64,000 nucleotides of DNA, taken from the sequence record OQ990040, one strand, 5' to 3'. The notes below the pieces were generated by a model, which did no database searches, had not been told where the DNA came from, and was given only the letters and a program-made list of their open reading frames with translations. Shown here in pieces: positions 28,458-28,578 of the stretch. Origin of the DNA: Escherichia phage SUT_E520. Every line of letters begins with the position of its first letter. Within the stretch, counting starts at the first letter, position 1. The position numbers were made by a program, and so were the translations under genes.

Positions 28458-28578
28458 CATTCTAGACAGGACTCGAACCTGTTATCACTTGTGCGGACTT
28501 ACGAGAACCATTCTTTCACTCGAATCGAACGAGCTTCTGCCCTCGCCAAGCTGGTTTCCCCATCAACCACGCTAGAAT
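28458..28578 (-). ncRNA. atypical 121-nt tRNA-like element (perfectly paired 7-bp termini, two T-arm-like hairpins)
   Basis: 5' ATTCTAG pairs with 3' CTAGAAT; canonical T-arm ACAGG-TTCGAGT-CCTGT at 3' side; D-arm-like GGTT/AACC; 54-nt insert between GCTTG and CAAGT contains a second T-arm-like GCTCG-TTCGATT-CGAGT. Confidence 0.4.

What the first reader, a model, noticed from the sequence alone, without database searches (positions are those of the whole stretch)
28458..28578. 121-nt tRNA-like element with paired termini and an internal second T-arm
The termini form a perfect 7-bp acceptor-like stem, the 3' side has a canonical T-arm, and the 5' side has a D-arm-like hairpin. However, the candidate anticodon stem GCTTG/CAAGT encloses 54 nt that include a second TTCGATT T-arm-like hairpin. 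This is too short for a group I intron and too long for a type II tRNA. It could be an insertion-containing tRNA, a fused tRNA pair, or a tRNA-derived regulatory RNA.
Basis: seen in the sequence. Interest (0 to 1): 0.55.

Follow-up and report, generated by a model that had tools for sequence, protein, structure and literature searches.

The report
Phage T5 RNA2: two-elbow tRNA mimic
The flagged element is the long-known but functionally unexplained "RNA2" of phage T5: a tRNA-shaped RNA whose anticodon loop is replaced by a very conserved second T-arm/D-loop knob, and relatives occur in several unrelated groups of large phages.

Summary
It lies on the minus strand at 28458-28578. The window is a T5-like phage, and the element is the orthologue (about 97% identical) of T5 gene rna2, which RefSeq annotates as a "tRNA-like stable RNA with unknown functions". 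Default ARAGORN and Rfam do not call it.

I collected 32 distinct homologues: T5-like phages, Acinetobacter T4-like phages such as Acj9, uncultivated large phages, and one 47-tRNA array. Across them 93.7% of proposed pairs form, 25 of 33 pairs show compensatory changes, and no shuffle matches this. The acceptor, D, anticodon-like, outer T and inner T stems all covary.

The 55-nt insert has no anticodon loop. It is a stem with a UAA bulge carrying a canonical T arm plus a 13-nt strand that resembles a D loop (AAUGGU). It is the most conserved part of the RNA, while the scaffold helices drift. A model built from the family separates members (at least 62 bits) from ordinary tRNAs (at most 35 bits).

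Most likely it is a non-decoding tRNA mimic matured by the tRNA-processing pathway, with a second "elbow" as its working end. Its partner is unknown. Intron, fused-tRNA and pseudogene readings are disfavoured. The entity is already known; the family and module structure appear not to be in Rfam.

The parts
28455..28579 (-). Window equivalent of the T5 misc_RNA rna2 (T5s06), 125 nt. Annotated in RefSeq as 'tRNA-like stable RNA with unknown functions'.
   Evidence: AY692264 rna2 is 32962-33086 and NC_005859 rna2 is 32959-33083. Mapped to the window through alignment A1.
28458..28578 (-). 121-nt core: the cloverleaf scaffold plus the module, from the first acceptor base to the discriminator.
   Evidence: Covariance model R1 scores it at 150.3 bits over model positions 1-121.
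28572..28578 (-). Acceptor stem, 5' strand (RNA positions 1-7, AUUCUAG).
   Evidence: All 7 pairs show changes on both sides across the family, and 94% of cells are paired.
28459..28465 (-). Acceptor stem, 3' strand (positions 114-120, CUAGAAU). The discriminator G is at 28458.
   Evidence: The discriminator and the first pair are not conserved across the family.
28552..28569 (-). D arm (positions 10-27): stem UGGU/ACCA and a loop containing GGGG.
   Evidence: All 4 stem pairs covary, and 95.8% of cells are paired.
28547..28551 (-). Anticodon-like stem, 5' strand (positions 28-32, GCUUG).
   Evidence: All 5 pairs covary and 99.4% of cells are paired. Variants seen include CUUG/CAAG, CCUC/GAGG, CCCAU/AUGGG and CUCCG/CGGAG.
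28487..28491 (-). Anticodon-like stem, 3' strand (positions 88-92, CAAGU).
28492..28546 (-). Conserved 55-nt module (positions 33-87) that takes the place of the anticodon loop.
   Evidence: Outside its T stem, mean column identity is 0.85 and 17 of 38 columns are invariant in 16 representatives. The acceptor stem by comparison is 0.47 with none invariant.
28536..28542 (-). Module stem, 5' strand (positions 37-43, GGGCAGA).
   Evidence: Pair 40-81: CG 18, UA 9. Pair 43-75: AU 22, UA 6, CG 2, GC 1. Pair 42-76: GC 32 of 32.
28495..28504 (-). Module stem, 3' strand (positions 75-84, UCG-UAA-GUCC). The invariant UAA bulge is at 28499-28501.
28518..28534 (-). Inner T arm (positions 45-61): a 5-bp stem and the loop UUCGAUU (28523-28529).
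   Evidence: 4 of 5 stem pairs covary. The closing G-C is invariant (32 of 32). 6 of 7 loop columns are invariant.
28505..28517 (-). 13-nt D-loop-like strand GAAAGAAUGGUUC (positions 62-74). It contains AAUGGU, which matches the tRNA D-loop consensus.
   Evidence: Near-invariant. Compare the Rfam tRNA consensus 'AaUGGUA' printed. That the GG docks into the inner T loop is an inference.
28466..28482 (-). Outer, canonical T arm (positions 97-113, ACAGG-UUCGAGU-CCUGU).
   Evidence: 3 of 5 pairs covary and 2 are invariant G-C. 97.5% of cells are paired.

Best explanation
The element is the gene for T5 RNA2, a small stable phage RNA that is a tRNA mimic and not a decoding tRNA.

It is transcribed on the minus strand as part of the phage tRNA-region transcripts. 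Because it has a complete acceptor stem, D arm and T arm, it is presumably cut out and trimmed by the host tRNA-maturation enzymes (RNase P at the 5' end, 3' trimming, CCA repair). This step is inferred.

Its anticodon arm does not end in a 7-nt loop. It continues through an internal loop into a 6-7-bp stem with a UAA bulge. That stem carries a second canonical T arm and a 13-nt strand with the D-loop sequence AAUGGU. Together these probably fold into a second tRNA-like "elbow" (inferred). This module is the conserved, functional end, and the cloverleaf serves as the scaffold and processing handle.

The most likely mode of action is binding, as a decoy or adaptor, to a widely conserved cellular component that reads tRNA shape or tRNA elbows. 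The partner is unknown. The RNA is dispensable for growth on laboratory E. coli.
For: Identity. The window matches T5-like phages at 99.6-100%. The element aligns to T5 rna2 with 4 differences in 121 nt. It is annotated there as a tRNA-like stable RNA.

Structure. All five cloverleaf and inner T helices covary: 25 of 33 pairs change on both sides, 93.7% of cells are paired, and 0 of 500 shuffles match. In the module stem, pairs 40-81 and 43-75 covary.

The module is the conserved part. Its identity is 0.85, and 0.99 in the inner T loop, against 0.47-0.66 for the scaffold helices.

It is a distinct family. Model R1 gives members 62-151 bits and ordinary tRNAs at most 35 bits.

Distribution. Members occur in Demerecviridae infecting Escherichia, Salmonella, Klebsiella and Serratia. 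They also occur in Acinetobacter T4-like phage Acj9, in uncultivated viral contigs of 160-250 kb, and in one 47-tRNA array.

It is not a decoder. There is no anticodon loop, and no tRNA call from Rfam or default ARAGORN.

The first pair and discriminator are not conserved, so no common aminoacylation identity is apparent.

It is non-essential. The viable T5Mos deletion 30661-38625 spans rna2 (PMC11464382).
Against: No experiment here shows the transcript ends, CCA addition, charging or any partner. "Stable RNA" rests on the GenBank annotation; I could not retrieve the primary papers.

The second-elbow fold is inferred from sequence resemblance. The GG and the T-loop residues are invariant, so covariation cannot test their contact.

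Three of the four pairs of the GGGY/RUCC helix never vary. Position 37 also correlates with position 86 (G-C 27, A-U 4), so the register at the base of the module is not settled.

In the Acinetobacter-type members the acceptor stem is AU-rich with mismatches, and in L014 it is squeezed between two tRNAs.

The decoy/adaptor role is a general inference. No conserved neighbouring gene supports it.
Confidence: 0.6

Rival explanations
1. It is an intron-containing tRNA gene. A roughly 48-nt intron at position 32/33 is removed. This leaves a 7-nt loop N-U-CCG-C-A (tRNA-Arg CCG), or N-U-CCA-U-A (tRNA-Trp CCA) in one subgroup.
For: With the threshold lowered (-ps90), ARAGORN calls 28458-28578 as tRNA-Arg(ccg) with a 48-nt intron. 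At default stringency it calls L095 as tRNA-Trp(cca) with a 47-nt intron, and it calls L008 and L120 the same way at -ps90. The residual loop has U at position 33 and A at position 38 in nearly all members. The 'anticodon' UCC pairs with intron GGG, which is reminiscent of an anticodon-intron helix.
Against: Position 37 would be a pyrimidine (C or U) in all 32 members, whereas tRNAs have a purine there. ARAGORN's calls are inconsistent across the family: Arg, Trp, Phe, Pro, Ile, Gln, Cys or nothing. The insert is far too small for a group I intron and gets no Rfam intron or ribozyme hit. The bulges do not have the bulge-helix-bulge arrangement, since the UAA bulge and the 3-nt GCA lie on the same strand. 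The insert is more conserved than the 'exons'. T5 annotates the full-length 125-nt species as the stable RNA. These phages already carry tRNA-Trp(CCA) genes.
Confidence: 0.05
2. It is a tRNA-like RNA that is charged with an amino acid and used outside normal decoding, for example in ribosome rescue like tmRNA or as an aminoacyl donor.
For: T5-like members have a complete 7-bp acceptor stem and discriminator. The Klebsiella-phage lineage (L007, L058, L135) encodes ...UCCCGUA-U-CCA at the 3' end. T5 RNA2 has A1-U72 and G73, which from my own knowledge are E. coli tRNA-Trp identity elements.
Against: The first base pair, G3-U70 and the discriminator are not conserved across the family. ARAGORN's tmRNA search is negative and there is no tag reading frame. 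The acceptor stem is the least conserved part of the RNA and is weak in the Acinetobacter-type members.
Confidence: 0.1
3. It acts in cis and not as a free RNA. It would serve as a processing or insulation signal, for example an RNase P or RNase E entry site, that helps mature the neighbouring tRNAs and RNAs of the polycistronic transcript.
For: It is usually embedded in tRNA clusters, often within a few nucleotides of flanking tRNAs. No terminator-like site is found in 28000-29200. The only strong promoter-like site lies downstream at 28308-28280, where T5 maps P13a.
Against: A processing handle needs only the cloverleaf, yet the strongly conserved part is the module. In L056 the RNA has no tRNA within about 5 kb. 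T5 annotates it as a stable RNA.
Confidence: 0.1
4. It is a decayed or recombinant tRNA pseudogene (two tRNA fragments fused) with no function.
For: tRNA T arms in these phages do recombine. Salmonella phage R2 carries a hybrid of the tRNA-Arg 5' part and the RNA2 3' part, and its acceptor strands cannot pair.
Against: Compensatory changes maintain every helix. The module is near-invariant across phage families that share little else. More than 470 phage records keep it.
Confidence: 0.03

Closest known systems
Bacteriophage T5 RNA2 (gene rna2, T5s06; NC_005859 32959-33083; AY692264 32962-33086)
   Same: It is the same gene. The position is orthologous, between RNAIV/promoter P13a and T5.067/tRNA-Asp. 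There are 4 substitutions in 121 nt. The annotation note reads 'tRNA-like stable RNA with unknown functions'.
   Different: Nothing essential differs. Most other T5-like records, including the closest ones, leave it unannotated or place a 'hypothetical protein' over it.
Phage T4 species 1 and species 2 RNAs (rnaC, rnaD)
   Same: They are also small stable RNAs of unknown function encoded inside a phage tRNA gene cluster. rnaC has a tRNA-like acceptor stem plus T arm, which R1 aligns at 12 bits.
   Different: They have no module, no inner T arm and no cloverleaf D or anticodon-like arms. There is no sequence similarity beyond the T arm. They are not members of this family.
Canonical tRNA (Rfam RF00005)
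   Same: It shares the 7-bp acceptor stem, the D arm with GG, a 5-nt variable region, and a T arm with the UUCGA loop and a G53-C61-type closing pair.
   Different: It is 121 nt long. It has no 7-nt anticodon loop and no R37. Position 8 is C in T5. It gets no RF00005 match even at E<=10, and no default ARAGORN call.
Bacterial Y RNA YrlA, which has a tRNA-like module (from my own knowledge: Chen et al. 2014 RNA; Wang et al. 2018 RNA)
   Same: It is a non-coding RNA that uses a T arm plus D-loop contact to imitate a tRNA elbow. Its anticodon-stem position is continuous with another helix. Relatives are also found in phages.
   Different: In YrlA the RNA ends lie in the Ro-binding stem and the acceptor is closed by a loop. 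Here the ends form the acceptor stem, and the extra elbow sits where the anticodon would be. There is no Rfam match to any family at E<=10. No Ro/TROVE gene was examined.
tmRNA tRNA-like domain
   Same: The acceptor and T arm are retained, the D-stem-less 'D loop' strand resembles the inner module strand, and the anticodon arm is replaced by other structure.
   Different: It has no mRNA-like tag region, no conserved G3-U70 and no pseudoknot series. The ARAGORN tmRNA search is negative.

Membership tests
T5 RNA2 (rna2) orthologue group | Sequence identity to T5 rna2 over its full length | tested here: met
   There are 4 differences in the 121-nt core against T5 st0. R1 scores both at 148-150 bits.
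T5 RNA2 (rna2) orthologue group | Same genomic position: tRNA-Asp, ORF T5.067, [RNA2], RNAIV, promoter P13a, ORF, tRNA-Pro | tested here: met
   In the window, tRNA-Asp is at 29075-29151, RNA2 at 28455-28579, RNAIV at 28334-28436, a promoter-like site at 28308-28280, and tRNA-Pro at 27965-28040.
T5 RNA2 (rna2) orthologue group | Accumulates as a stable RNA of about 125 nt in infected cells | not testable with these tools
   Only the GenBank annotation note is available. The primary papers were not retrievable.
Canonical decoding tRNA (RF00005) | Cloverleaf with acceptor stem, D arm and T arm | tested here: met
   Covariation supports all three.
Canonical decoding tRNA (RF00005) | 7-nt anticodon loop with U33 and purine 37 on a 5-bp stem | tested here: not met
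   The 5-bp stem encloses 55 nt. The best residual loop has pyrimidine at position 37 in all members.
Canonical decoding tRNA (RF00005) | Reaches the Rfam gathering score or a default ARAGORN call | tested here: not met
   There is no RF00005 hit at E<=10 in 28050-29075. ARAGORN finds nothing by default or in intron mode.
Group I intron-containing tRNA | Intron of about 200 nt or more with the group I core | tested here: not met
   The insert is 48-55 nt, and no Rfam intron or ribozyme family matches.
Archaeal/eukaryal-type spliced tRNA (bulge-helix-bulge) | Two 3-nt bulges on opposite strands separated by a 4-bp helix | tested here: not met
   The 4-bp GGGY/RUCC helix is flanked by GCA (3 nt) and UAA (3 nt) on the same 3' strand, and by 4 nt and 1 nt on the 5' strand.
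tmRNA | tRNA-Ala-like end (G3-U70) plus a tag-peptide reading frame | tested here: not met
   ARAGORN finds no tmRNA. Pair 3-70 is U-A or U-G in T5-likes and varies elsewhere.
T4 species 1 / species 2 RNA | Sequence or structure homology to rnaC or rnaD | tested here: not met
   With filters off, R1 gives rnaC 12.1 bits through the acceptor and T arm only, with the module deleted, and finds nothing in rnaD.
YrlA / bacterial Y RNA | Match to the Rfam model, with a Ro-binding terminal helix | tested here: not met
   No Rfam family matches at E<=10. The terminal helix is a tRNA acceptor stem. Association with Ro was not tested.

The most novel reading that the evidence does not exclude
The conserved module could be a new kind of tRNA-borne intervening sequence. 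It carries its own T arm and D-loop strand, so the tRNA-processing machinery might recognise and excise it. That would convert RNA2-family genes into tRNA-Arg(CCG) or tRNA-Trp(CCA). It would be the first bacterial or phage tRNA intron that is not a group I intron.
Probability: 0.04. Interest if true: 0.9.

Novelty: already known. Interest (0 to 1): 0.42.

Why it matters
The small stable RNAs encoded in the tRNA clusters of T-phages (T5 RNA I-IV, 1, 2; T4 species 1 and 2) have had no assigned function for decades, to my knowledge.

This RNA turns out not to be a T5 oddity. It belongs to a family shared by T5-like phages, Acinetobacter T4-like phages and uncultivated large phages. Its cloverleaf is supported by covariation and its "second elbow" is almost invariant. 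That pattern points to a conserved cellular partner that reads tRNA shape.

It also gives concrete mutations to test: the inner T loop, GG70-71 and the UAA bulge.

It matters for annotation too. Rfam has no model for it. Many records leave it blank or place a hypothetical ORF over it. Relaxed tRNA finders miscall it as Arg, Trp or Phe tRNAs with introns.

Given current interest in phage tRNAs as counter-measures to tRNA-cleaving defence systems, a non-decoding tRNA mimic in the same clusters is a natural candidate decoy. That role is unproven.

Tried and rejected
1. MFE helix CGAGGGC/GUUCUCG inside the insert. It has no covariation support: score 0.110 against 0.102 for shuffles (136 of 500 shuffles reach it), and pair 35-76 is broken in half of the sequences. 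I replaced it with GGGY/RUCC plus G42-C76 and N43-N75.

2. Homology to T4 rnaC or rnaD. An apparent 'UCGAUUCGAG...CGUAAG' resemblance to rnaC did not hold up. R1 aligns only the acceptor and T arm.

3. Functional link to a YqeY/GatB-tail-like protein. Such an ORF lies 200 nt upstream of the RNA in L056, and a distant homologue is in the window at 36535-36969. However, YqeY-like genes in Brevundimonas phage Bajun, PA5oct and Vibrio phage Chester have no RNA2-like RNA within 5 kb. I treat it as a general feature of tRNA-rich phages.

4. Module as an independent motif. The pattern AAGAATGGTTCNCRTAANNCC outside the scaffold found only chance hits in what look like protein-coding regions.

5. Mimicry of a host sequence. 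The 55-nt module has no blastn match in 5,426 E. coli genomes.

6. Presence in bacterial genomes. One pattern scan of 185,579 species genomes gave 26 hits. Only one (L081) has the family's downstream T arm and a model R1 score above the tRNA range. It lies on a 167-kb contig with a T4-like-style tRNA cluster.

7. ARAGORN intron mode gives inconsistent identities across the family.

8. Protein-coding explanation. Only short overlapping ORFs of 28-72 aa exist.

9. Literature searches for T5 RNA2 and stable RNAs in the held library found nothing relevant.

Full report
**What the window is.** The 4-kb stretch around the finding is 99.6-100% identical to T5-like coliphages (Tequintavirus, Demerecviridae). 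The window carries a minus-strand cluster of more than 20 tRNA genes. The finding lies between tRNA-Pro (27965-28040) and tRNA-Asp (29075-29151).

**Checking the observation.**
  - Acceptor: AUUCUAG/CUAGAAU, 7 perfect pairs, then discriminator G.
  - D arm: UGGU-UGAUGGGGAA-ACCA.
  - Outer T arm: ACAGG-UUCGAGU-CCUGU.
  - Variable region: 5 nt.
  - Anticodon-like stem: GCUUG/CAAGU.
  - Inner hairpin: GCUCG-UUCGAUU-CGAGU.
- The stem encloses 55 nt, not 54.
- Folding energy alone is unremarkable: z = -1.0, and 33 of 200 shuffles fold as well.
- ARAGORN does not call it, by default or in intron mode. Rfam does not call it at gathering thresholds or at E<=10, not even as a partial tRNA.

**It is a known gene.**
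It lies between RNAIV and ORF T5.067.
- Pairwise alignment maps it to window 28455-28579. There are four substitutions within the 121-nt core.
- Most other T5-like records leave the region blank or place a hypothetical protein over it.
- I could not retrieve the original papers in the held library. The statement that it is a stable RNA therefore rests on the annotation.
- A viable T5 variant, T5Mos, lacks 30661-38625, which spans rna2. The RNA is therefore dispensable on laboratory E. coli (PMC11464382).

**A family, not a one-off.**
- blastn finds the element in 479 phage records, down to 75-80% identity in Serratia, Klebsiella and Acinetobacter phages.
- Pattern scans anchored on the conserved core recovered further members.
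  - Viral contigs of 160-170 kb. One is Acinetobacter phage Acj9, a T4-like phage.
  - A 164-kb viral contig with no tRNA within about 5 kb of the RNA (L056).
  - A 247-kb contig (L141).
  - Other metagenome contigs (L124, L132).
  - A member inside a 47-tRNA array on a 1.46-Mb metagenome contig (L095).
- Only one of 26 pattern hits in 185,579 species genomes has the family's features. It sits on a 167-kb contig with a T4-like-style tRNA cluster (L081). The family therefore looks essentially phage-borne.
- A covariance model built from six sequences (R1) scores 51 matches at 62-151 bits. The next best hits, all ordinary tRNAs matched with the module deleted, score at most 35 bits.

**Structure from comparison.** The model-based alignment holds 32 distinct sequences (A8).
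- With the refined structure, 93.7% of cells are standard pairs. Sliding the partners by 1-3 columns gives 30-42%.
- 25 of 33 pairs change on both sides, and none of 500 shuffles reaches any observed measure (the first version is).
- All 7 acceptor pairs, all 4 D-stem pairs, all 5 anticodon-like stem pairs, 4 of 5 inner T-stem pairs and 3 of 5 outer T-stem pairs show compensatory changes.
It appears as CUUG/CAAG, CCUC/GAGG, CCCAU/AUGGG, CUCCG/CGGAG and other variants.
- Inside the insert, the helix predicted by energy minimisation (CGAGGGC/GUUCUCG) has no comparative support.
- An all-against-all scan instead showed two covarying pairs.
  - Position 40 covaries with 81: C-G 18, U-A 9.
  - Position 43 covaries with the one variable base of the UUC-N-CGUAA motif, position 75: A-U 22, U-A 6, C-G 2, G-C 1.
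  - The latter pair sits next to an invariant G42-C76.
- The insert is therefore a stem, 37-40/81-84 plus 42-43/75-76, with an invariant UAA bulge. Position 41 faces position 77 without a standard pair in most members.
- That stem is capped by one A, a T arm, and the 13-nt strand GAAAGAAUGGUUC.
- The inner T arm has the hallmarks of a real T arm. The closing G-C is invariant, and the loop UUCGAUU is invariant at 6 of 7 columns.
- The 13-nt strand contains AAUGGU, which is the tRNA D-loop consensus. Compare "AaUGGUA" in the Rfam tRNA consensus printed.
- My inference is that this GG docks into the inner T loop as G18/G19 do in tRNA, which would give the RNA a second elbow at the far end of an elongated anticodon arm. 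Because these residues never vary, covariation cannot test the contact.
- The register at the base of the module is not fully settled. Three of the four GGGY/RUCC pairs never vary, and position 37 also correlates with position 86.

**What is conserved.**
- In 16 representative sequences the non-stem module positions average 0.85 identity, with 17 of 38 columns invariant.
- The inner T loop averages 0.99.
- The acceptor stem averages 0.47 and the anticodon-like stem 0.56, with no invariant column in either.
- The first base pair, pair 3-70 and the discriminator all differ among lineages.
- One Klebsiella-phage lineage encodes a 3' CCA.
- The scaffold therefore looks like an interchangeable tRNA frame, and the module looks like the functional part.
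- In the Acinetobacter-type members the acceptor stem is AU-rich with 1-2 mismatches. In L014 the element is squeezed between two tRNA genes.

**What it is not.**
- *Not a decoding tRNA.* There is no anticodon loop.
- *Probably not an intron-containing tRNA.*
  - With its threshold lowered, ARAGORN reads the window element as tRNA-Arg(CCG) with a 48-nt intron. At default stringency it reads L095 as tRNA-Trp(CCA) with a 47-nt intron.
  - The residual loop N-U-C-C-R-Y-A would have a pyrimidine at position 37 in every member.
  - The calls across the family are inconsistent.
  - The insert is too small for a group I intron and matches no Rfam ribozyme or intron.
  - The bulges are not arranged as a bulge-helix-bulge.
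  - The "intron" is more conserved than the "exons".
  - I keep this reading at about 5%, because U33 and A38 are conserved and the "anticodon" pairs with the insert.
- *Not tmRNA*.
- *Not related to T4 rnaC or rnaD beyond a T arm*.
- *Not a copy of any E. coli sequence*.
- *Not protein-coding*.
- *Not a neutral pseudogene*, given the compensatory changes.

**How it most likely works.**
- Shown:
  - The RNA keeps a full tRNA frame and a conserved, T-arm-bearing module across distant phages.
  - It usually sits within tRNA clusters.
- From the T5 annotation, not tested here: it is a stable RNA.
- From a published deletion, not tested here: it is non-essential.
- Inferred:
  - It is released and stabilised by the tRNA-maturation pathway (RNase P, 3' trimming, CCA repair).
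  - Both T loops are probably modified like tRNA.
  - The module forms a second elbow.
  - The RNA acts by binding something that recognises tRNA shape or elbows.
- The module is nearly identical in phages of Enterobacteria and Acinetobacter and in uncultivated phages. The partner is therefore more likely a widely conserved cellular component than a sporadic, strain-specific protein. A decoy for tRNA-directed nucleases remains possible and is the most testable idea.
- I found no conserved neighbouring gene. A YqeY/GatB-tail-like ORF sits 200 nt upstream of the RNA in L056, and a distant homologue lies in the window at 36535-36969. Three other phages with YqeY-like genes have no RNA2-like RNA nearby.

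**Verdict.**
- The entity itself is already known as T5 RNA2, so the finding is not a discovery.
- What appears to go beyond the database annotation:
  - the breadth of the family;
  - the covariation-supported structure of the insert;
  - the reading of the insert as a second T-arm/D-loop elbow;
  - the absence of any Rfam model.
- Its function remains an old, open and now more testable question.

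Noticed in passing
window 28334-28436 (-): This is T5 'RNAIV' (annotated 'stable RNA with unknown functions'), 18 nt downstream of RNA2. It folds as a four-way, cloverleaf-like RNA with an 8-bp terminal stem. It has a long arm ending in a 7-nt loop, CUCGCAA, that has an anticodon-loop pattern (U at the second position, A at the sixth). No Rfam or ARAGORN call.
   Followed up: partly
window 28588-28696 (-): An unannotated structured stretch lies immediately 5' of RNA2. It has a 10-bp terminal helix, UUUCAGUGCA/UGCACUGAAA, and an internal hairpin, CAAGA-CUCGGAC-UCUUG. The sequence is identical in T5 st0, and neither T5 record annotates it. The fold z-score is only -1.3.
   Followed up: partly
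window 36535-36969 (-): A 144-aa ORF in the tRNA region is distantly YqeY/GatB-tail-like. Pfam PF09424 gives E=0.0032, below its cutoff. BLASTP gives 3e-7 to a clear YqeY-like ORF that lies next to the RNA2 homologue in L056. In T5 st0 this gene is truncated by the st0 deletion.
   Followed up: partly
L003 616-686 (Salmonella phage vB_Sen_SG_WM_RUS_R2, PQ002169): The annotated 'tRNA-Arg' is a hybrid. Its 5' part comes from a tRNA with anticodon UCU, and its T arm and 3' acceptor strand come from RNA2. The two acceptor strands cannot pair. It looks like a large deletion produced by recombination between near-identical T arms.
   Followed up: partly
window 25420-25506 (-): tRNA-Thr(UGU) is 87 nt long and has a long variable arm of about 15 nt (GGAGGAGUAAUCCCGUU). 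That is unusual for a Thr tRNA. T5 itself annotates a 75-nt tRNA-Thr.
   Followed up: no
window 31921-31995 (-) and 36203-36274 (-): Two tRNA-like genes reach the Rfam tRNA gathering score (40.3 and 35.5 bits) but ARAGORN does not call them.
   Followed up: no
L041 6751-6823, L057 5451-5523, L081 7053-7127: The Acinetobacter-type T4-like loci that carry the RNA2 homologue also carry a tRNA with anticodon CUA, which reads the amber codon and which ARAGORN labels 'Pyl'. In L081 it lies directly upstream of the RNA2 homologue.
   Followed up: no
L095 1-8283 (metagenome contig Ga0308158_10000004, 1.46 Mb): A dense array of 47 tRNA genes in 8.3 kb includes one RNA2-family member at 6023-6138, between tRNA-Gly(GCC) and tRNA-Pro(CGG). 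The organism was not identified.
   Followed up: partly
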